NCBI RefSeq assembly: GCF_055900595.2
Contig: NZ_CM148325.1
DNA length: 64,000 nucleotides
Reading direction: 5' to 3' (one strand)
The position numbers and the translations under genes were made by a program. The notes under the pieces were generated by a model. It searched no databases and was not told the origin of the DNA. It saw only the letters and a program-made list of their open reading frames with translations. How positions within the stretch are numbered: the stretch's first letter is position 1; each line of letters starts with the position of its first letter. Shown here piece by piece: positions 7,799 to 23,581 of the stretch.

Positions 7799-7979
7799 TT
7801 TAAAAATGTTTAATATTCTATGTTCTCGGTCATATTTTATTAATTTGGATGAATATATGCTGTTAGTGCTGTATTCTCCGTTTGGATACACCTTTACCTT
7901 AGCGATATAGTTGTGTTATTCATATATAAATATGCCCCGTTTTAATTCCATGCATTTTTATATCTTGGTCAAATAATGG

Positions 7980-8600
7980 TGTCGTCGATATTCTTCCAGC
8001 GTCTTATTGTTCAGTGATTCATGTGTGCGTTCATAGCTATATTCTGATAACCATTTCTCCGTAATTTCTAGAACTTCATTCAGCGTTCTGAACAGATAAA
8101 AATCGAGTATTTCTGTACGGTGTGTCCTGTTAAAACGCCCAATAAAAGCGTTCTACGTCAGCTTACCCGGCTGGATAAACTCCCGTTTTACTGCGTGTAT
8201 ATCAGCCCATTCAGCCAGCGTTAGAGAGATAAATTCCGAACCATTATCTATGCGCAGCATGACCGGATAACTGCGATTTGCCGCGAACCTGCTGCCTCAG
8301 AACCTGAAAAAGTTTTGAAAAACCGTATCGAGGATATCGCTCGTCCACTGCCTGCACCACCACAATAACGGGGTCGTACCACGTGGTATCCGGACGGTAA
8401 TGGGAAACCGTTCTGCTCTGGTTCAGACTCCGGCAGGCCTGATGGACACTGAGTCCAAATGTCGTTATCTGATGAGTAACAAGCTCACGCTTACAGGCTG
8501 GTTTTAAAGCTTTTTTCGATAATGTCTTTCAATGCCGGTTCTCTAGGCTAAGGTCGGCAAGCATCTGTTTTGGACGTCGGTTCTCGTCCTCAAGATCCTC
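7980..8600 (-). pseudogene. IS3-family OrfB remnant, heavily decayed
   Basis: minus-strand translation shows scattered integrase-core-like stretches broken by many stops. Confidence 0.35.
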
Positions 8601-8720
8601 GTTCTTTTTAATATCAGGTGACTCTATGCATCGTATCTGGGCTTCCAGTTCATGGAATGGAGTACCCCCTCCTTTTGCGGTTAACTGTACGAAATGCACT
8701 CACTCAGCAGGGGAATCACA

Positions 8721-9240
8721 ATGAATATCGTATTCCTGGGTATTGATCTGGATAAAAATATCTTTCAGCTCTGCGGGTTAAATTAGGTCGGTAATCCGGT
8801 TTATTCAAAACGTATTGGCCGAAAAGAATTACTCCAAATAGTGGCGAATATTCCGGCCTTCCTAATTGATGTAGGGCATCCACATGGGAATTTTACTGGC
8901 AGAGTGAATTTAAAAAACTGGGGCATAACGTAAAGGTCCTCAACCCACAGTATGTAACTCCCTTTGTCTGTGGGCAAAAAATGACGGTAATGATGCACAG
9001 GCCATCGCAGTGCTTCTGATGTAACCGACAATGCTGTTCATGCCTCCAAAAAGCTCGGAACAACAGGATATCTACGCTTTGCACCGGGCAAGGCAGCATA
9101 TTGTTAATGTGACCGTTTGTCAAATCAGGGGACTGTTGCTTGATTGGGGAATAACTATCGGCGCGGTAGTTTCAAGAGATCGTCGTGCTATGTCAACGCC
9201 AAGATTATTGGCCGTTTTGGGGATGCGGACGATTTCCTGG
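8721..9240 (+). pseudogene. IS110-family transposase N-terminal remnant with stops
   Basis: MNIVFLGIDLDKN..., NDGNDAQAIA motif, QIRGLLLDWGI region; interrupted by in-frame stops. Confidence 0.5.
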
Positions 9241-9249
9241 ACTTCTTTA

Positions 9250-10154
9250 TTATTCCAGCCTACATTGTTGGCGGTACATTTCAGGGCTGTCTTCACCCAG
9301 CGATAATTTTATACGCCGCTCGTTATACCCTCTGATGTAAGCATCCACATGCTGCATGAACTTTTCCGGCATGATGCCCGACCATTTACGCCCATAATAC
9401 ATTTCCGTTTTCAGTCTGCCGAAAAAGCCTTCGCATGCGGCATCATCCTTACGGGACATTGAGTGAATAAGACCTGCGGCATTAACTCTTTCCAGCCAGC
9501 CTGGCCAGCGATAATGCCCACCTCTGCCACTGTGTATCATCGGTCGTTCGCCAGCATTTAACGTTTTGACAGCGTTATCCAGCATAGCGTTAACCAGTTC
9601 TGCGTCGGGGCGTGTACTGAGAGACCAGCTCACAACTTTTCCATCGAAGCAGTCCACCACCTGTGACAGCCAGACTTTTCCTGCAGGAAGCTGGAACTCC
9701 GTTATATCTGTCAGCCATTTCTGATTAGGTTGATCCTCCTTAAAATCTCTGGCGATAAGGTTATCCGGATCCGGTCCGATTTCTCCGCAATATGAGCTGT
9801 AGCGGCGACGACGGTTACGGCTGACGACAAGCTGTTCCTTCACCATAAGTCTGCTTACAACCTTTTCTGATAGCTGACCCCCTCATGCCTGAGCATCGCA
9901 TGCAGGCGACGATAGCCATAACACTGGTAATTACTGTTAACTATATCTGTCAGCATCGTACGTATCGTGGCGTATTTATCACCGGCTTTCAGTGCAGCCC
10001 GGTGATAAAAATAACTGCTACGGGCAAGCCCCAGAACATGCAGTAATTCTGTCAGGGGATATGTTTGTCTCAGGGCATCAGCGATATTTGTTTTTTCTCT
10101 GTTGTTTAGGTGACTGATACTGATGCCCGGGTCTAATGAGATGGTCACCCCCAC
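9250..10154 (-). pseudogene. IS3-family OrfB transposase split into two ORFs (9250..9846 and 9855..10154)
   Basis: DDE integrase core (WLTDITEF, HSGRGGHY, KDDAACEGFF); stop between the N- and C-terminal parts. Confidence 0.65.
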
Positions 10155-10199
10155 CCTGTGAGCGGTACGCTGACAGGGTGGGTTATTTTAGAGGGCACC

Positions 10200-11190
10200 A
10201 TCATGTAAAACGTTGCGCTTATTGGTATCGATCTCGGTAAACATTCTTTCCATATTCATTGTCAAGATAAATCTGGCAATGCGCTTTTGCGTAAAAAGTT
10301 TACGCGTACGAAGCTGATGCAGTTTCTGGCAACATGTCCATCCTCAGTAGTTGTTATGGAAGCCTGCGCTGGTACGCATTTTATGGCCCGGCGTATCAGC
10401 GACATCGGTCATGAAGAAAAACTTATCTCTCCGTAATTCGTGCGTCCGTTTGTCAAAGGTATAAGAATGATTTTATTGATGCAGAAGCCATATGCAAAGC
10501 GGCTTCACGACCATCAATGCGTTTTGTCCAGCCCAGAACAGAAACCCAGCAGGCAATGAGGGCATTACATCGGGTCAGAGAATCGCTCATCAGAGATAAG
10601 GTGAAAAAAAACAACCAGATCCACGGTTTCTTGCTGGAATTTGGAATCAGACTGCCGACAGGGGATGCCGCAATAAAATGGTTATCTCTGGCGTTAGCTG
10701 AACACGAAATACCTGAATATCTGAGTCGCTTGCTGATGAAATTACATGCTCACTATCTTTATCGTATTGAGCAAATAACAGAACTGGAATCAGAGTTAAA
10801 CCAGTCAATCAAAGCTGACGCTACTGTGCAACGAATCATGACAATCCCCGGTGTTGGGCCGATGACGGCCAGCCTGCTATCATCCCAGCTTGGTGATGGT
10901 AAACAATTTTCGTGCAGTAGGGATTTTGCAGCATCCACAGGACTTGTTCCCCGACAATACAGTACCGGTGGTAAATCAATGCTGCTGGGGATCAGCAAAC
11001 GAGTCGGTTACTTGTTCTGTACGCCCGCTCGTTCATGATGCGGCTGGAGCATCAATAGGGCAGAGTTGCTGAATGGGTTCAAAAGCAACTCGACAATAAG
11101 CATTCAAATATTGTCGCCTGCGCTCTGGCAAATAAACTGGCCCGAATAGCCTGGGCAATCACTGCTCTGCACAAAGAATATCAGGCCTGA
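10200..11190 (+). pseudogene. IS110-family transposase with multiple frameshifts/stops
   Basis: N-terminal IGIDLGKHSF, central IPGVGPMTASLL, C-terminal KLARIAWAI motifs found in different frames. Confidence 0.6.
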
Positions 11191-11440
11191 TATAGATACT
11201 GACAAAACTCAATTAGCTTATTTTAAAAAATAAGATACAAGTTACCTGTCTGGTTTTGCGAAGACTGATTATTGATGACATGAACGGCAAATAGACCTGA
11301 TTAAAAACCTGACAGAAAAAATGGCTCACTGAAGCCGAGGGTCTTTTTAGGATTATCAGGTGCGGAACTCATCGAGGCGCGGGTCTCCTTGTCCACAGAG
11401 ACGCCGGATAGATTTAAGCAAGCCCACCATTAATCAAAAA

Positions 11441-12057
11441 TCAGTGTAGCAAAAACGGGGGTGACCATAGATTTTTTATGATTTTCTCCGCTTTTTTCAG
11501 AATATCCAGTTCCATCTGCCGGCGGCGTATTTCCTGATTCAGTCGGGCGACTTCCTCCCGCAACGCATCGCGTTCTGCCTCCAGGGAAGGTTCGTTATGT
11601 TTACGCATAGTCTGGTAAGCACTGTTGCCGATAATTTCATCTTTCCATTTATACAATACCGCACGACTGACACCAATACGCCTAGAGATTTCACTGGCTG
11701 ATATTTGTCGTGTACAGAATGCCATGACAGCCTGACGTTTGACTTCTGGTTCAAAGGGCGCAACCGGACTGGTCTTACTGGTAAATATACGTCGTCTGCC
11801 GGGGTAACGTTCATTAACCCAGCGAGCGAGCACATCGGTACAGGGATAACCCAGAGTTCTACTGGTAAACGCTAGGCAGCAGCCGTGGTTAAGATAATGT
11901 TCAACGGCAACTTGTTTTTGCTCATCTGTGTAACGGGGCTTATGGCGAATGGATTCTTTTGCTCCGCCACCTGATTCCTATGAACGGATCCAACGCCGCA
12001 GATTTCTTTTCGAAGGGTAGCCCAGTTCGCGTACGACGGGAGCCAGCTTCTTACCAT
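11441..12057 (-). pseudogene. HTH transposase (OrfA-type) fragment, IS3-like
   Basis: HTH region ISASEISRRIGVSRAVLYKWK followed by coiled-coil ending ILKKAEKI; upstream part in a different frame. Confidence 0.4.
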
Positions 12058-12059
12058 TG

Positions 12060-13300
12060 ACTAGTCTTGGTATAAGTTGACACTTTTCTGTCTGTAAAAC
12101 GCCTGATGAACGTCATAGGGCGTTTTGTATTTCAGAGCCAGGTGTGGCCGCTCATGGTTATAAATTGCCACGGACTCTTGGACCATTTCCCGGGCCTGAG
12201 CCAGGTCTGCAGGACGCGAGAGTAAAAACTCATTTTTCAGGGTACCATTTATTCACTCAGCCAATGCTGGTAGCAGTCATAACCATCAGTCATTGAACAG
12301 GTTATTTCATTTCTTTCATGAACTGACTGATAGAGCGCTGAACAGTATTGCAGCCCCTGCCAGAATGATGCACCAGGGGACTCGTCGTTTTTCTCAGCTT
12401 CAGCACCTGTCTGAACGCTTTTACCACATTTTCTGTCTGCAGGTTTTCCCCAACATGGTAGCCCATAATTTTTCTGGAGCAGGCATCGGTGACCAGACTC
12501 AGATAGGCCGAACTATTGCGCAGTGGAAGGTAAGTAATATCGGCGACCCGGACCTGTTCTGGTTCAAGAGCAGTAACCTGTTCAGGGCCTGGTTTAAGCA
12601 GGTTTGGATGTCGGTAGAAGCGATGATGGCTGTTGGTAGTTTTGTGATATGACCGTTTTACTGGCACCAGGAGTCGGTATTCATCGGGCAGGTTAAACAG
12701 GCGGTCTCGCCCGATATTCAGCCTTTTATCGGCCTGAGTGTTCAGCAGATAGTGCAGCTTACGCGCACCGATTCGGGGCTGACGACATCTGACACGGGCA
12801 ACAAAATCAAGAACCTGAGCATGATGTTCCTGCCGTTTTCTGCGCCTTGCATTGTCCTGATACCATGCCTGTCTGCTGTGTCCCAGGAACAGACTGCACG
12901 CGTCACAGTTATTTTGGGGACCGGACTTTGCGCGAGGACTTGCCGGGCCGCTTTTTACGATACTCACCCCGTAATCATTTTTCAGGACATTGATAACTGA
13001 CTCAAAAAACGTAGCTTTCTGGTTCGCCAGCTCAAGCTACGTTTCAAGTTCCCTGATTCTTTGCTCGGGTGTGAGCGGGATAGTTGTCTGAGTCACAGGC
13101 AGTTTCCTCTTCACCAGCTCAGGAAGTCCAGGATATTTACGTAACCAGACAAGAACGGTGGAGCGCCCCTGAATGCCATACCGCTGCTGGGCCTGTTTAT
13201 AAGTCATCTCGCCTTTTTCAACCTGCTCAACAACAGCTATTTTAAAGGATAGAGGATAATCACGTTGGGTGCGTTTGAGCTAAGTCATCATTACGTTCTC
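12060..13300 (-). pseudogene. IS3-family element, orfA plus frameshifted orfB
   Basis: ORF 12302..12967 carries DITYLP and rve core; C-terminal tail (YNHERPHLAL) continues in another frame below 12302; OrfA-like HTH upstream. Confidence 0.6.
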
Positions 13301-13532
13301 CGGATTTAAGTAGGAACGTGTCAACGCTATTCAGGACGGGTCACATATTTGAAATAAAGCTCAATGGCGCGGATTTTTTCTTCTTCAGTAAACATGTTTC
13401 ATCTCCTGAGAGTCCAGGAAATCGTCCGCATCCCCATTACTGTCTTATATCATTGGCGCTGACAGCTATTCTGCTGAGCCTTGAGGATGCATAAACGGGT
13501 TAAGAGCTTGTATGTGCAGAACGATAGCGGAA

Positions 13533-13535
13533 CTA
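13533..13535. repeat. left copy of TA target duplication within CTAG, flanking IS630
   Basis: c-TA immediately before the element; matching TA-g at 14689-14691. Confidence 0.75.
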
Positions 13536-14688
13536 AATAGCTGCGCGGAATAGTAGATCACTTTGAGGGAGCTCAGCCTGGATTGTGCGATCTGATCAAT
13601 CGCCAAATCAAAACAAATCACCAACCGGACTGAGCAATGCCGATCATAGCACCAATTTCCCGTGACGAACGACGCCTGATGCAGAAAGCCATCCATAAAA
13701 CACACGATAAAAATTATGCCCGCAGACTGACTGCCATGCTGATGCTGCACCGGGGCGACCGTGTCAGCGACGTTGCCAGAACGCTCTGCTGCGCCCGTTC
13801 CTCTGTTGGATGTTGGATTAACTGGTTCACGCAGTCGGGTGTTGAGGGACTGAAATCATTACCTGCCGGGCGAGCCCGTCTCTGGTCGTTTGAGCATATC
13901 TGCACACTGTTACGTGAGCTGGTAAAACATTCTCCCGGCGACTTTGGCTACCAGCGTTCACGCTGGAGTACAGAACTGCTGGCAATAAAAATCAATGAGA
14001 TAACCGATTGCCAGTTAAATGCCGGAACCGTTCGCCGCTGGTTGCCGTCTGCGGGGATTGTGTGGCGAAGGGCTGCGCCAACTCTGCGTATCCGTGACCC
14101 GCATAAAGATGAAAAGATGGCAGCAATCCATAAAGCACTGGACGAATGCAGCACAGAGCATCCGGTCTTTTATGAAGATGAAGTGGATATCCATCTTAAT
14201 CCCAAAATCGGTGCGGACTGGCAACTGCGCGGACAGCAAAAACGGGTGGTCACGCCGGGACAGAATGAAAAATATGATCTGGCCGGAGCGCTGCACAGCG
14301 GGACAGGTAAAGTCAGCTATGTGGGCGGCAACAGCAAAAGTTCGGCGCTGTTCATCAGCCTGCTGAAGCGGCTTAAAGCGACATACCTTCGGGTGAAAAC
14401 CATCACACTGATCGTGGACAACTACATTATCCACAAAAGCCGGGAAACACAGCGCTGGTTGAAGGAGAACCCGAAGTTCAGGGTCATTTATCAGCCGGTT
14501 TACTTGCCATGGGTGAATCATGTTGAACGGCTATGGCAGGCACTTCACGACACAATAACGCGTAATCATCAGTGCCGCTCAATGTGGCAACTGTTGAAAA
14601 AAATTCGCCATTTTATGGAAACCATCAGCCCGTTCCCCGGAGGCAAACATGGGCTGGCAAAAGTGTAGTGGTATTAGGCGCAGCTATT
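13536..14688 (+). mobile_element. IS630, complete
   Basis: exactly 1153 bp between terminal inverted repeats AATAGCTGCGC; flanked by TA inside a reconstituted CTAG target. Confidence 0.9.
13637..14668 (+). CDS. IS630 transposase
   Basis: 343-aa ORF matching my recollection of IS630 transposase (MPIIAPISRDERRLMQKAIHKTHD...). Confidence 0.92.
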   Translation: MPIIAPISRDERRLMQKAIHKTHDKNYARRLTAMLMLHRGDRVSDVARTLCCARSSVGCWINWFTQSGVEGLKSLPAGRARLWSFEHICTLLRELVKHSPGDFGYQRSRWSTELLAIKINEITDCQLNAGTVRRWLPSAGIVWRRAAPTLRIRDPHKDEKMAAIHKALDECSTEHPVFYEDEVDIHLNPKIGADWQLRGQQKRVVTPGQNEKYDLAGALHSGTGKVSYVGGNSKSSALFISLLKRLKATYLRVKTITLIVDNYIIHKSRETQRWLKENPKFRVIYQPVYLPWVNHVERLWQALHDTITRNHQCRSMWQLLKKIRHFMETISPFPGGKHGLAKV

Positions 14689-14699
14689 TAGATGATCTC

Positions 14700-15160
14700 T
14701 TTAACGATCTCGGTCGTAGTATAAACTTTTTTGATAAATAAATAGAGACCTGTCCAGGCAATCTGAATGCTGTCAGCGTATTGCAAAAGCTAAAGGCATT
14801 GGTCCTGAAATTGTCACGAGCGTTGTTGCTGTTATTATTGGCAAAGGCACTGAATTTAAGAATGATCGTCACTGTGCTGCATGGCTTGGTCTGCTTCCAT
14901 GCCTGCACTAGAGTTGCTGCAGGTAAGTTCTCATGAATATAACGAAAAAAGGCGACAAGCATCTGCAAACACTTTTTATTCATGGCGTCCGTGCTGTCGT
15001 TAGAGTTGCTACGAATAATAATGATGTATACCTAAATCAGTGGGTTAAGCAGTTAAAGGAGAGTCGCGAATTTAATAAAACTACTGTGGAGATTGCTAAC
15101 AAATACGCGAGAATAATCTGGTCGATGCTGATAAATGATACAGAATATCAGGCAGTGTGA
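14700..15160 (+). pseudogene. IS110-family transposase C-terminal remnant, host of the IS630 insertion
   Basis: AAWLGLLPC and KGDKHLQTLFIHGVRAVV C-terminal motifs, with stops upstream. Confidence 0.55.
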
Positions 15161-15169
15161 AGTTAATCT

Positions 15170-15510
15170 CTTTCAGCAAAAGTTGCAGCGTACTGAGAAA
15201 TGGTGACGGGTTGCACCTGCACAATCGGAACCTGATTTTTGTACTGGCCTCAGAGGTCGTCCAGTTGTAGAGGCGATTGTGTGTGGATTCCCTATTTGGG
15301 CACAGGTTTTCCTGATGCCGGATAGATGTAAGCAACAATCCAAAACCAGAATCAGTGCTTGCAAAACTGAGGTAGTCAATAGATGTAGTAAGTGGCTTCA
15401 GAAATACCGGCTTCCCGACAAACATCTTTAATTGTTCGTCCGGTTTCAACCGATTTAATTACAGCGATGATCTAATACTCAGTAATACGGGCTTTACGCA
15501 TAGCGATTTT
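15170..15510 (-). pseudogene. IS3-like OrfA (HTH transposase) remnant
   Basis: minus-strand translation IAVIKSVETGRTIKDVCREAGISEATYY with in-frame stops. Confidence 0.4.
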
Positions 15511-15824
15511 CTTCGTTATCAGATTGATTATTCCGGATGATCTCTAAATATGAATGGAGCGATTATGCGGGATACTTACAGATGGCTCTCACTTAATGAG
15601 AGTCTTCTTTCAAACAACAAAAACAGTAAATTGGGTAGAATGGGGAACTTAACTGCATCGTTAATTAATATATGGATGCGCTGTTGTAAAATATAGATGT
15701 ATCGGGGATAATAATACTTTACTCTGTTTCCAGCGAGTATGTTTGGTTTGCTGGACAAAGCGCCTCATAAAGTCAGAGGCGCTCAAAGTAGAAATATATT
15801 TCAGAGGGAATGTATCATAATGTA

Positions 15825-16421: not shown

Positions 16422-18509
16422 ATGCGAGTAACCACTCTGGCTTCAGTAGCCATCCCTTGTCTCGGGTTTTCAGTCAGCAGTATGGCTGCGGAAGATGTGA
16501 TGGTAGTCACGGCGTCTGGCTATGAAAAAAAATTAACCAGTGCAGCTGCGAGTGTTTCAGTGATCAGCCAGGAGGATTTGCGATCCAGCCAGTATCATGA
16601 TCTGGGGGAGGCACTGAGATCCGTAGAGGGGGTGGATGTTGAAAGCGGTACGGGTAAAACAGGTGGGCTGGAAATCAGCATCCGCGGAATGCCTGCCAGT
16701 TATACGCTGATACTGATCGATGGTGTCCGTCAGGGCGGGAGCAGTGACGTAACCCCAAACGGTTATGCTGCCATGAATACGGGTTTTATGCCACCTCTGG
16801 CCGCCATCGAACGTATTGAGATTATCAGGGGCCCCATGTCCACTCTGTACGGCTCTGATGCCATGGGGGGCGTGGTGAATATCATCACCAAAAAGAATGC
16901 AGACAAATGGCGCTCTTCGGTTAATGCCGGGCTGAACCTGCAGGAAAGTAACAAATGGGGGAACAGCAGCCAGTTTAATTTCTGGAGCAGCGGTCCCCTT
17001 GTGGATGATTCACTCAGCCTTCAGGTACGTGGCAGCACACAGCAGCGTCAGGGCTCATCGGTCACATCACTGAGCGACACCTCAGCTACGCGTATCCCTT
17101 ATCCCACGGAATCACAGAATTATAATGCAGGTGGTCGTCTTGACTGGAAAGCGACGGACAAGGATGTACTCTGGATTGATATGGATATCGCCCGGCAGCG
17201 TTATGATAACCGAGATGGCCAGCTGGGCAGTCTGACGGGCGGTTATGATCGCACCCTGCGCTATGAGCGTAATAAAATTTCAGCAGGCTATGATCATACA
17301 TTCACCTTCGGAGCCTGGAAGTCATCCCTGAACTGGAATGAGACGGAAAATAAAGGCCGTCAGCTTGTACGTAGCGTACTGCAGCGTGATAAATGGGGGC
17401 TTGCCGGCCAGCCGAGGGAGCTTAAGGAGTCGAATCTTATCCTGAGCTCATTACTGTTTGCACCTCTGGGGGAATCACACAAGGTTACCGTCGGTGGTGA
17501 GTATCAGAACTCCTCCATGAAAGACGGGGTTGTTCTCGCCAGTACTGGTGAAACCTTCCGTCAGAAAAGCTGGTCGGCATTTGTTGAGGATGAGTGGTAT
17601 ATCACGGATGCATTTGCACTGACTGCGGGTAGCCGCTATGAACGCTATGAGGTGTTCGGAGGACACTTCAGTCCCCGGGCATATATGGTCTGGGATGTGA
17701 CTGATGCGTGGACGCTGAAAGGTGGGGTGACCACGGGATATAAGGCGCCCAGCATGGGGCAGTTACATAAGGGGATCAGCGGTGTGTCCGGTCAGGGGCG
17801 TACGAATCTTCTCGGTAACCCGGACCTGAAGCCGGAGGAGAGTGTCAGTTATGAAGCGGGCGTGTATTACGATAATCATGCCGGTCTGAACGCCAATATC
17901 ACGGGCTTTATGACAGAATTCTCCAACAAGATCGTATCTTATTCCATTGATGATAATACCCGCAGCTACACAAACAGCGGAAAGGCTAGGACTCAGGGCG
18001 TGGAATTTGCCGGCACACTGCCTCTGTTGTCAGAGGATGTGACTCTGTCTCTGAATTATACCTGGACGCAGAGTGAACAACGGGATGGGGATAATAAAGG
18101 TGCACCACTGAGTTACACCCCTGAGCATATGGTGAATGCGAAACTGAACTGGCAGATTACTGAAGAGGTGACATCATGGCTGGGTGCCCGTTACCGCGGG
18201 AAAACGCCACGTTTCACCCAGAATTATTCGTCACTCTCAGCTGTACAGAAGAAAGTGTATGATGAGAAAGGTGAATATCTGAAAGCCTGGACGGTACTGG
18301 ATGCGGGCATGTCGTGGAAAGTGACGGATGCACTGATGCTGAATGCAGCGGTGAATAATGTGCTTAACAAGGATTACAGTGACGTAAGTCTGTATCGTGC
18401 CGGCAGTGGTACGCTTTATGCGGGTGATTACTTCCAGACGGGGGCATCGACAACGGGTTATGTGATACCTGAGAGAAATTACTGGATGTCGCTGAACTAT
18501 CAGTTCTGA
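16422..18509 (+). CDS. iha: TonB-dependent outer-membrane siderophore receptor / adhesin Iha
   Basis: 695-aa ORF with signal peptide, plug domain, beta-barrel and C-terminal aromatic residue; matches remembered Iha N-terminus. Confidence 0.85.
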   Translation: MRVTTLASVAIPCLGFSVSSMAAEDVMVVTASGYEKKLTSAAASVSVISQEDLRSSQYHDLGEALRSVEGVDVESGTGKTGGLEISIRGMPASYTLILIDGVRQGGSSDVTPNGYAAMNTGFMPPLAAIERIEIIRGPMSTLYGSDAMGGVVNIITKKNADKWRSSVNAGLNLQESNKWGNSSQFNFWSSGPLVDDSLSLQVRGSTQQRQGSSVTSLSDTSATRIPYPTESQNYNAGGRLDWKATDKDVLWIDMDIARQRYDNRDGQLGSLTGGYDRTLRYERNKISAGYDHTFTFGAWKSSLNWNETENKGRQLVRSVLQRDKWGLAGQPRELKESNLILSSLLFAPLGESHKVTVGGEYQNSSMKDGVVLASTGETFRQKSWSAFVEDEWYITDAFALTAGSRYERYEVFGGHFSPRAYMVWDVTDAWTLKGGVTTGYKAPSMGQLHKGISGVSGQGRTNLLGNPDLKPEESVSYEAGVYYDNHAGLNANITGFMTEFSNKIVSYSIDDNTRSYTNSGKARTQGVEFAGTLPLLSEDVTLSLNYTWTQSEQRDGDNKGAPLSYTPEHMVNAKLNWQITEEVTSWLGARYRGKTPRFTQNYSSLSAVQKKVYDEKGEYLKAWTVLDAGMSWKVTDALMLNAAVNNVLNKDYSDVSLYRAGSGTLYAGDYFQTGASTTGYVIPERNYWMSLNYQF

Positions 18510-22252: not shown

Positions 22253-23581
22253 CTGATGAATCCCCTAATGATTTTTATCAAAATCATTAAGTTAAGGTAG
22301 ATACACATCTTGTCATATGATCAAATGGTTTCGCCAAAAATCAATAATCAGACAACAAAATGTGCGAACTCGATATTTTACACGACTCTCTTTACCAATT
22401 CTGCCCCGAATTACACTTAAAACGACTCAACAGCTTAACGTTGGCTTGCCACGCCTTACTTGACTGTAAAACTCTCACTCTTACCGAACTTGGCCGTAAC
22501 CTGCCAACCAAAGCGAGAACAAAACATAACATCAAACGAATCGACCGATTGTTAGGTAATCGTCACCTCCACAAAGAGCGACTCGCTGTATACCGTTGGC
22601 ATGCTAGCTTTATCTGTTCGGGCAATACGATGCCCATTGTACTTGTTGACTGGTCTGATATCCGTGAGCAAAAACGGCTTATGGTATTGCGAGCTTCAGT
22701 CGCACTACACGGTCGTTCTGTTACTCTTTATGAGAAAGCGTTCCCGCTTTCAGAGCAATGTTCAAAGAAAGCTCATGACCAATTTCTAGCCGACCTTGCG
22801 AGCATTCTACCGAGTAACACCACACCGCTCATTGTCAGTGATGCTGGCTTTAAAGTGCCATGGTATAAATCCGTTGAGAAGCTGGGTTGGTACTGGTTAA
22901 GTCGAGTAAGAGGAAAAGTACAATATGCAGACCTAGGAGCGGAAAACTGGAAACCTATCAGCAACTTACATGATATGTCATCTAGTCACTCAAAGACTTT
23001 AGGCTATAAGAGGCTGACTAAAAGCAATCCAATCTCATGCCAAATTCTATTGTATAAATCTCGCTCTAAAGGCCGAAAAAATCAGCGCTCGACACGGACT
23101 CATTGTCACCACCCGTCACCTAAAATCTACTCAGCGTCGGCAAAGGAGCCATGGATTCTAGCAACTAACTTACCTGTTGAAATTCGAACACCCAAACAAC
23201 TTGTTAATATCTATTCGAAGCGAATGCAGATTGAAGAAACCTTCCGAGACTTGAAAAGTCCTGCCTACGGACTAGGCCTACGCCATAGCCGAACGAGCAG
23301 CTCAGAGCGTTTTGATATCATGCTGCTAATCGCCCTGATGCTTCAACTAACATGTTGGCTTGCGGGCGTTCATGCTCAGAAACAAGGTTGGGACAAGCAC
23401 TTCCAGGCTAACACAGTCAGAAATCGAAACGTACTCTCAACAGTTCGCTTAGGCATGGAAGTTTTGCGGCATTCTGGCTACACAATAACAAGGGAAGACT
23501 CACTCGTGGCTGCAACCCTGCTTACTCAAAATCTATTCACACATGGTTACGTTTTGGGGAAATTATGAGGGGATCTCTCAG
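22253..23581 (+). mobile_element. IS10, complete
   Basis: 1329 bp; outside end CTGATGAATCCCCTAATGATTTT at 22253, inside end ...GGGGATCTCTCAG at 23581. Confidence 0.95.
22360..23568 (+). CDS. IS10 transposase
   Basis: 402-aa ORF matching remembered IS10 transposase (MCELDILHDSLYQFCPELHLKRLNS...). Confidence 0.95.
   Translation: MCELDILHDSLYQFCPELHLKRLNSLTLACHALLDCKTLTLTELGRNLPTKARTKHNIKRIDRLLGNRHLHKERLAVYRWHASFICSGNTMPIVLVDWSDIREQKRLMVLRASVALHGRSVTLYEKAFPLSEQCSKKAHDQFLADLASILPSNTTPLIVSDAGFKVPWYKSVEKLGWYWLSRVRGKVQYADLGAENWKPISNLHDMSSSHSKTLGYKRLTKSNPISCQILLYKSRSKGRKNQRSTRTHCHHPSPKIYSASAKEPWILATNLPVEIRTPKQLVNIYSKRMQIEETFRDLKSPAYGLGLRHSRTSSSERFDIMLLIALMLQLTCWLAGVHAQKQGWDKHFQANTVRNRNVLSTVRLGMEVLRHSGYTITREDSLVAATLLTQNLFTHGYVLGKL

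What the first reader, a model, noticed from the sequence alone, without database searches (positions are those of the whole stretch)
13300..15160. Exact IS630 insertion with TA duplication nested inside an IS110-family remnant
The element is exactly 1153 bp between inverted repeats and flanked by TA on both sides within a reconstituted CTAG, the known IS630 target. The flanks on both sides translate as the C-terminal part of an IS110-family transposase, so IS630 inserted into a pre-existing IS copy, giving a relative order of events.
Basis: seen in the sequence. Interest (0 to 1): 0.35.

Follow-up and report, generated by a model that had tools for sequence, protein, structure and literature searches.

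The report
IS630 copy inside a shattered IS110 element
A complete 1153-bp IS630 jumping gene sits, with its textbook TA duplication in a CTAG site, inside a dead IS110-family element that is one layer of a four-deep pile of insertion sequences upstream of the E. coli iha gene; this is ordinary and already annotated in public genomes.

Summary
The IS630 observation is correct. The element is window 13536-14688 (1153 bp) and carries an intact 343-aa transposase ORF. It is flanked by TA on both sides, and excision restores CTAG. Three independent Shigella/EIEC copies lose homology at exactly these ends.

With IS630 removed and one TA kept, the flanks align without a gap to IS110-family genes elsewhere. 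The nesting claim therefore holds.

Two details are wrong. Only 71 bp of the left flank (13465-13535) is IS110. Positions 13300-13464 are the ends of two IS3-family elements. The IS110 copy is also not a C-terminal stump: its 5' half lies at 8651-9190.

The full nest is:
- An IS3-family element Z contains IS110-A.
- IS110-A contains IS630 and E, a 4.3-kb IS3-family element with a GCTA duplication.
- E contains X (IS3 family, CAT duplication) and a second, IS4321-like IS110-family element, IS110-B.

This IS630 variant differs by 2.1% from the S. sonnei copies. The differences are mostly non-synonymous. The same junction occurs in 58 of 5,426 complete E. coli genomes, and no empty-site allele was found.

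This is known biology that PGAP already annotates, so interest is low.

The parts
13536..14688 (+). IS630 copy, 1153 bp (an isoform 97.8-97.9% identical to Shigella sonnei IS630 copies)
13534..13535 (.). left copy of the TA target duplication (c-TA; the CTA half of CTAG)
14689..14690 (.). right copy of the TA target duplication (TA-g; the TAG half of CTAG)
13536..13564 (+). IS630 left terminal inverted repeat
14660..14688 (-). IS630 right terminal inverted repeat; two base differences from the S. sonnei copies
13637..14668 (+). intact IS630 transposase ORF, 343 aa. HTH plus DDE_3 domains; NF033545 at 244.6 bits; putative D181/D261/E297 (DD35E) retained; S290L lies in the YSPW motif
8651..9190 (+). 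IS110-A 5' part: left non-coding end 8651-8720, then the N-terminal half of the transposase pseudogene (ATG at 8721), with several frameshifts
13465..13535 (+). IS110-A middle piece (71 bp) between element E and IS630; its first 4 nt (GCTA) are the right copy of E's target duplication
14691..15160 (+). IS110-A C-terminal coding part (Transposase_20 domain), with one frameshift and two in-frame stop codons
15161..15384 (+). IS110-A right non-coding end (about 220 nt; end uncertain by 4 nt). More conserved than the CDS among relatives. Contains TCCAGTTGTAG (15260-15270), identical to the target site in Z across the insertion point, so it is a candidate bridge/seek RNA guide
9191..13464 (-). IS3-family element E, about 1.66 kb when intact and 4274 bp here with its two inserts. 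It lies inside IS110-A, has inverted-repeat ends, and is flanked by a 4-bp GCTA duplication (9187-9190 / 13465-13468)
10135..11471 (+). IS110-B, a second IS110-family pseudogene element (1337 bp) inside E. It has 12-bp subterminal inverted repeats (ATGGTCACCCCC), no duplication, and is 74-75% identical to IS4321/IS5075. Its right end contains GGGTCTTTTT, which matches its own target
12058..13343 (-). IS3-family element X (1286 bp, pseudogenised) inside E, with TGAC... inverted repeats and a 3-bp CAT duplication
7936..8650 (-). 3' part of IS3-family element Z, the outermost host, with an internal deletion of about 274 bp. The isrN Rfam match at 8363-8505 (+) lies antisense within it
15385..15580 (-). 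5' part of element Z (start of orfA and terminal inverted repeat ending at 15580)

Best explanation
A copy of IS630 (IS630/Tc1-mariner superfamily, DDE transposase, cut-and-paste) integrated at the TA of a CTAG tetranucleotide. That site lay in the inter-domain region of an IS110-family transposase gene, IS110-A, and the TA was duplicated on insertion.

IS110-A had itself inserted site-specifically into an IS3-family element, Z. IS110-A was also hit by another IS3-family element, E, which made a 4-bp GCTA duplication. E in turn received element X (IS3 family, CAT duplication) and a second IS110-family element, IS110-B.

The region 7936-15580, upstream of iha, is therefore a four-level insertion-sequence graveyard. 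Nesting gives this order: Z, then IS110-A, then IS630 and E (their relative order is unresolved), then X and IS110-B after E.

IS630 is the only piece with an intact ORF and intact ends. It is a locus-specific variant inherited with the island rather than a recently active copy, and I infer that it is quiescent or impaired.

Shown: boundaries, duplications, collinearity after excision, family assignments, and distribution among genomes. Inferred: the transposition chemistry, from family knowledge (Feng & Colloms 2007, PMC2170065; Tenzen et al. 1990/1991 as cited there), and the present activity state.
For: IS630 itself:
- Boundaries, TA/CTAG flanks and inverted repeats.
- 100% identity to PGAP-annotated IS630-family transposase loci.
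- Homology to three independent S. sonnei/EIEC copies ends exactly at the same bases, all flanked by CTA...TAG, with 24-25 nt differences and no indels.
- NF033545 at 244.6 bits (cutoff 100) and Pfam DDE_3 plus HTH domains.

Insertion into IS110-A:
- Excised flanks give a single HSP to IS110 genes.
- There is no gap at the junction.
- The right flank matches Transposase_20 and NF033542.
- IS110-A reconstructed without E and IS630 aligns in one HSP to the E308 copy (79.9% over 1460 bp).

The rest of the nest:
- An intact Z relative brackets IS110-A at 8650/15381.
- An intact E relative aligns in three collinear pieces that delimit IS110-B and X.
- The duplications GCTA and CAT, and the exact joint for IS110-B.

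Distribution and state of the copy:
- The IS630/IS110-A junction is present in exactly 58 of 5,426 genomes, the same number that hold a >=99% identical IS630.
- Differing codons are 4-5 synonymous against 14-16 non-synonymous; the DDE residues are kept; S290L is present.
Against: - No empty-site allele (the same IS110-A copy without IS630) exists in the 5,426 complete E. coli genomes. The pre-insertion state is therefore inferred from relatives only 80-84% identical, which read CTCTAT or CTTTAT where the window has CTAGAT.
- The ISfinder IS630 reference entry could not be consulted. S. sonnei plasmid copies that PGAP names 'IS630-like element IS630 family transposase' served as proxy.
- The order of the IS630 and E insertions cannot be derived from nesting.
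- The activity state is inferred, not tested.
- The ends of IS110-A are uncertain by 4 nt because AGTT and AGAT overlap at the junctions.
Confidence: 0.93

Rival explanations
1. One reading: the IS110 piece is a C-terminal-only remnant that starts by 13300, and both flanks of IS630 encode the C-terminal part of the transposase.
For: The right flank is the C-terminal domain. PGAP in SMS-3-5 also labels it 'transposase ... missing N-terminus'.
Against: IS110 homology on the left begins only at 13465. Positions 13344-13464 match the end of an intact IS3-family element, and 13300-13343 is the inverted repeat of X. The N-terminal half of the same IS110 copy is at 8651-9190, and it joins the rest in one HSP once E and IS630 are removed.
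Confidence: 0.03
2. The two flanks were brought together by homologous recombination between two IS630 copies at different sites, or by another rearrangement, rather than by one insertion event.
For: E. coli and Shigella genomes carry several IS630-like copies, so inter-copy recombination is possible in principle.
Against: Both flanks are adjacent parts of one IS110 gene. With one TA removed they are collinear with three relatives with no gap or loss. Both sides carry TA within one CTAG. The window holds only one IS630 copy.
Confidence: 0.02
3. The IS630 copy is still an active, recently transposed element rather than a quiescent passenger of the island.
For: It has an intact 343-aa ORF, a retained DD35E triad, complete ends and an exact TA duplication.
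Against: Copies >=99% identical occur in 58 records, the same number as genomes carrying this very junction. That points to one locus per genome and no spread. Differences from S. sonnei IS630 are mostly non-synonymous (14-16 against 4-5 codons). They include S290L next to the catalytic E, in the conserved YSPW motif, and two changes in the right inverted repeat.
Confidence: 0.3

Closest known systems
IS630 of Shigella sonnei (IS630 family, Tc1/mariner superfamily)
   Same: Length 1153 bp, a single 343-aa ORF, the same terminal sequences (AATAGCTGCGC...), and a TA duplication inside 5'-CTAG-3'. It is 97.7-97.9% nucleotide-identical to pSS_046/pINV copies with no indels.
   Different: 24-25 base differences and 13-15 amino-acid substitutions (R59C, R82L, P84S, G124D, A173T, Y214D, R251L, A253V, S273R, S290L, V323I, V330I and others), plus two changes in the right inverted repeat. 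PGAP names its product only 'IS630 family transposase'. The variant is seen only at this one locus.
IS110 family, IS1111-like layout (RNA-guided DEDD recombinases; Durrant et al. 2024, PMC11208160)
   Same: The host element IS110-A has the Transposase_20 C-terminal domain. It has a short left end (about 70 nt) and a long right non-coding end (about 220 nt). It made no target duplication. Related copies sit at exactly the same position in Z-type IS3 elements in three other loci. Its conserved right end carries an 11-nt copy of the target.
   Different: It is heavily decayed, with frameshifts, two in-frame stops and two IS insertions. No exact subterminal inverted repeat of 7 nt or more was found. 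No named ISfinder relative was identified. The N-terminal DEDD domain scores below the Pfam cutoff in the broken frames.
IS4321 / IS5075 (IS1111 group)
   Same: IS110-B (10135-11471) is 74-75% identical at its 5' end to annotated IS4321/IS5075 copies. It has 12-bp subterminal inverted repeats and inserted without a duplication.
   Different: It is a different, pseudogenised element inserted in an IS3-family transposase gene rather than in a Tn21-family inverted repeat.

Membership tests
IS630 (the element itself) | Length 1153 bp with terminal inverted repeats | tested here: met
   13536-14688 is 1153 bp. The terminal 11 nt are identical at both ends, and about 29-32 nt form an imperfect inverted repeat.
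IS630 (the element itself) | TA target duplication, preferentially within 5'-CTAG-3' (Tenzen et al. 1990/1991, as cited in PMC2170065) | tested here: met
   cTA|...|TAg. Three independent copies have the same flanks. CTAG is rare here: 32 sites among 3324 TA.
IS630 (the element itself) | High sequence identity to reference IS630 copies | tested here: met
   97.7-97.9% nucleotide identity and 328-330 of 343 amino acids identical to S. sonnei pSS_046/pInv and EIEC pINV copies that PGAP names 'IS630-like element IS630 family transposase'. The ISfinder entry itself was not available.
IS630 family | Single transposase with N-terminal HTH domains and a DDE (DD35E) catalytic domain | tested here: met
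   NF033545 at 244.6 bits (cutoff 100). Pfam DDE_3 at 80.2 bits plus HTH_23/32/29. D261 and E297 are separated by 35 residues. Assigning these as the catalytic residues is by analogy.
IS630 family | Transposition activity (cut-and-paste) | not testable with these tools
   Only an intact ORF and intact ends can be shown.
IS110 family (host element IS110-A) | C-terminal Transposase_20 domain | tested here: met
   PF02371 at 49.8 bits (cutoff 21.3). NF033542 profile positions 209-342 at 100.2 bits, which is below the whole-protein cutoff of 140 because only the C-terminal frame was scored.
IS110 family (host element IS110-A) | N-terminal DEDD (RuvC-like) domain | tested here: inconclusive
   PF01548 scores only 17.9 bits (cutoff 29) in one of the broken frames. 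At the DNA level, 8651-9190 aligns with the N-terminal half of annotated IS110-family genes.
IS110 family (host element IS110-A) | Site-specific insertion without a classical target duplication | tested here: met
   Related copies are at the same position of Z-type IS3 elements in L002, L003 and L005. Only a 4-nt AGTT/AGAT overlap is present at the junctions.
IS110 family, IS1111 group | Short left end, long right end encoding the guide RNA, and subterminal inverted repeats of 7-17 bp (PMC11208160) | tested here: inconclusive
   IS110-A has a left end of about 70 nt and a right end of about 220 nt. Its right end is conserved and carries an 11-nt copy of the target, but no exact subterminal repeat of 7 nt or more was found. 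IS110-B does have a 12-bp subterminal repeat. Rfam had no match in either right end.
IS3 family (elements E, X, Z) | rve integrase-core transposase, TG...CA inverted-repeat ends, 3-4 bp duplication | tested here: met
   NF033516 and PF00665 hits. The inverted repeats and the GCTA and CAT duplications. Intact relatives L004 and L009.

The most novel reading that the evidence does not exclude
The most novel reading left open concerns the host elements, not IS630. The IS110-A lineage may be a specialised 'IS of an IS'. It is found at exactly the same position of diverged Z-type IS3 elements in at least four loci. Its conserved right end carries an 11-nt same-sense copy of that target across the insertion point. 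IS110-B shows the same pattern for its own target (10 nt). This pile-up would then be a natural record of RNA-guided insertion of IS110-family elements into other transposase genes.
Probability: 0.5. Interest if true: 0.25.

Novelty: already known. Interest (0 to 1): 0.1.

Why it matters
It matters little beyond annotation. The result gives a clean, fully resolved example of nested IS insertions, with exact ends and target duplications at four levels, next to the virulence gene iha. It can serve as a lineage marker, because the junction is shared by 58 of 5,426 complete E. coli genomes. It also corrects PGAP's fragmentary 'transposase, partial' labels. It shows nothing new about how IS630 or IS110 elements work.

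Tried and rejected
1. I first took the ends of IS110-A from homology with the E308 copy (8465 and 15337). This was rejected. An intact Z element shows that 8288-8650 and 15381-15580 are Z, and the E308 copy is itself cut at its right end. The corrected ends are 8651 and 15380/15384.

2. I considered that the Rfam isrN match (8363-8505) might be the bridge RNA of IS110-A. This was rejected. The match lies inside Z, antisense to its transposase, which agrees with the published description of IsrN overlapping the transposase gene STM2765 (PMC2330248).

3. My first guess for element X (12068-13334, from an inverted-repeat search) gave no duplication. Alignment to an intact E copy moved the ends to 12058-13343, with a CAT duplication.

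4. I assumed the window was E. coli SMS-3-5. It is not collinear with it. SMS-3-5 carries an extra ISEc23 inside IS110-B and differs again beyond 19382.

5. I searched for an empty-site allele with the excised junction and with the right junction. None was found.

6. A search for an exact subterminal inverted repeat of 7 nt or more in IS110-A found nothing.

7. Tenzen et al. 1990 (PMC213363) is not held in the library. The IS630 target facts are therefore cited through PMC2170065.

Full report
**Observation.** Reading the sequence places the element at 13536-14688, exactly 1153 bp.
- The two ends begin with the same 11 nt in inverted orientation (AATAGCTGCGC). They continue as an imperfect repeat, with 32-nt arms including CTA/TAG that are 78% complementary.
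- TA lies immediately outside both ends, at 13534-35 and 14689-90. The next bases outward are c and g, so removing the element and one TA leaves CTAG.
- CTAG is strongly under-represented in the window. There are 32 sites where base composition predicts about 249, against 3324 TA dinucleotides. A chance CTAG context is therefore roughly a 1% event.
- The single long ORF, 13637-14668, is intact at 343 aa.

**Identity and independent confirmation of the ends.**
- The 1153 bp are 100% identical to loci that PGAP annotates as 'IS630 family transposase' in E. coli SMS-3-5 and others.
- In the plasmid collection the best matches are Shigella sonnei and EIEC invasion plasmids, at 97.7-97.9% identity. 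They are annotated 'IS630-like element IS630 family transposase'.
- I fetched three of these copies in unrelated contexts and aligned them with 50-bp flanks. Homology starts and stops at exactly the same bases in all four sequences, and each copy is flanked by CTA...TAG.
- Inside the element there are 24-25 substitutions and no indels.
- The protein scores 244.6 bits on NF033545 (cutoff 100) and has Pfam DDE_3 plus HTH domains.

**Do the flanks join?** Yes.
- The sequence with IS630 and one TA removed aligns as one HSP to IS110-family pseudogenes. In E. coli RM14723 the match is 83.6% over 964 bp, covering window 13465 to 15580. In E308 it is 82.2% over 723 bp.
- A four-way alignment has no gap at the junction. 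Relatives read GAACTCTATGATC or GAGCTTTATGAGC where the window reads GAACTA|GATGATC.
- The frame is continuous across the junction, reading ...RTIAEL|DDLFNDLGRSINFFDK.
- The right flank carries the Transposase_20 domain (PF02371, 49.8 bits) and matches NF033542 profile positions 209-342 of 343.
- IS630 therefore sits at about profile position 190, between the two domains.

- IS110 homology to the left of IS630 begins only at 13465.
- An intact IS3-family element from strain A28 (1662 bp) aligns to the window in three collinear pieces: 9191-10134, 11472-12057 and 13344-13464. So 13344-13464 is the inverted-repeat end of that element, which I call E.
- E is bounded by inverted repeats with a 26-nt perfect core and by a 4-bp duplication, GCTA, at 9187-9190 and 13465-13468.
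- The gap 12058-13343 is another IS3-family element, X. It is 1286 bp, has TGAC... inverted repeats and a CAT duplication.
- The gap 10135-11471 is a second IS110-family element, IS110-B. It is 1337 bp, has 12-bp subterminal inverted repeats, is joined exactly with no duplication, and is 74-75% identical to IS4321/IS5075.
- Left of E, 8651-9190 is the 5' end and N-terminal half of the same IS110 copy that hosts IS630. With E and IS630 removed, the reconstruction aligns in one HSP to the E308 copy, 79.9% over 1460 bp.
- An intact IS3-family element from EC361 shows that IS110-A is itself an insertion in a further element, Z. Z occupies 7936-8650 and 15381/15385-15580 on the minus strand.

**The nest and the order of events.** Z contains IS110-A. 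IS110-A contains IS630 and E. E contains X and IS110-B. Nesting gives the order Z, then IS110-A, then IS630 and E, then X and IS110-B after E. It cannot order IS630 relative to E.

**State of the IS630 copy.**
- Relative to the S. sonnei copies it has 13-15 amino-acid changes.
- Differing codons are 4-5 synonymous against 14-16 non-synonymous, which is roughly the neutral ratio.
- The putative DD35E residues (D181, D261, E297) are intact.
- S290L falls in the conserved YSPW motif just before the catalytic E, and the right inverted repeat has two changes.
- Copies >=99% identical occur in 58 records. Exactly 58 of 5,426 complete genomes carry this IS630/IS110-A junction.
- Every other hit to the junction query covers only the IS630 part. 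No genome has the excised junction at high identity.
- The variant is therefore known only at this locus and travels with the island. I infer it is quiescent or impaired, at about 0.6-0.7, but this is untested.

**Mechanism.** From established knowledge of the family, IS630/Tc1-mariner elements move by transposase-only cut-and-paste. The 3'-OH ends attack staggered positions at a TA, which is duplicated (Feng & Colloms 2007, PMC2170065). The CTAG preference of IS630 comes from Tenzen et al. 1990/1991, as cited in that paper. Everything seen here fits that chemistry. The chemistry itself is inferred, not shown.

**By-product on the IS110 elements.**
- Related IS110-A copies sit at the same nucleotide of diverged Z-type elements in L002, L003 and L005.
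- The right non-coding end, about 220 nt, is far better conserved than the CDS.
- That right end contains TCCAGTTGTAG at 15260-15270. This is identical to the Z target across the insertion point (TCCAGTT|GTAG). Only 3 of 2000 shuffles gave a match that long.
- IS110-B has GGGTCTTTTT at the equivalent distance from its right end, matching its own target GGGTCT|TTTT.
- This is what the published bridge/seek-RNA model for IS1111-type elements predicts (PMC11208160). It supports the element boundaries assigned here, but it is not new.

**Comparison, novelty and score.** This is a member (isoform) of IS630 inserted in a decayed IS110-family element. Both are already annotated by PGAP in public genomes. 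Nothing departs from known behaviour. I rate novelty as 'already known' and interest at about 0.1.

Noticed in passing
window 15260-15270 (IS110-A right end) and 11339-11348 (IS110-B right end): Each IS110-family element carries, about 125-130 nt before its right end, a same-sense copy of its own target site spanning the insertion point. These are TCCAGTT|GTAG (11 nt) and GGGTCT|TTTT (10 nt). The IS110-A right end is nearly invariant among four loci whose coding sequences are only about 80% identical. This fits a right-end-encoded bridge/seek RNA guide.
   Followed up: partly
window 8650/8651 and 15380-15385; loci L002, L003, L005: IS110-A-type elements sit at exactly the same position (after CTTCCAGTT) of diverged Z-type IS3-family elements in at least four different loci, including one plasmid. 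Either this IS lineage targets another IS, or the composite is ancient.
   Followed up: partly
window 8363-8505 (+): There is a full-length Rfam isrN match (RF01396, 138 bits). It lies antisense inside the IS3-family element Z, consistent with published IsrN overlapping the transposase gene STM2765 in Salmonella. It is therefore IS-associated rather than an island-specific regulator.
   Followed up: partly
window 11195-11202; L001 1112-3660: E. coli SMS-3-5 has an extra ISEc23 (IS66-family) insertion inside IS110-B, with an 8-bp overlap consistent with a target duplication. This adds a fifth nesting level that the window lacks, so the pile-up is still accreting in some lineages.
   Followed up: partly
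window 16422-18509 (+): The gene for the bifunctional siderophore receptor/adhesin Iha lies about 0.85 kb downstream of the end of Z, so the whole IS pile sits directly upstream of a virulence gene. Any effect on iha expression was not examined.
   Followed up: no
window 22298-22367 (-) and 51662-51704 (-): Rfam matches to RNA-OUT (97 bits, implying an IS10/Tn10-type element) and to the ES036 sRNA (42.9 bits).
   Followed up: no
other E. coli genomes, hits H183-H189: Unannotated 56-nt matches (98% identity) to the right end of IS630 alone (window 14636-14691) occur in several chromosomes. They could be solo IS630 ends or MITE-like remnants.
   Followed up: no
window about 8290: Element Z in the window lacks about 274 bp present in the intact relative L004 (query positions 527-800), which is an internal deletion in the outermost host element.
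   Followed up: no
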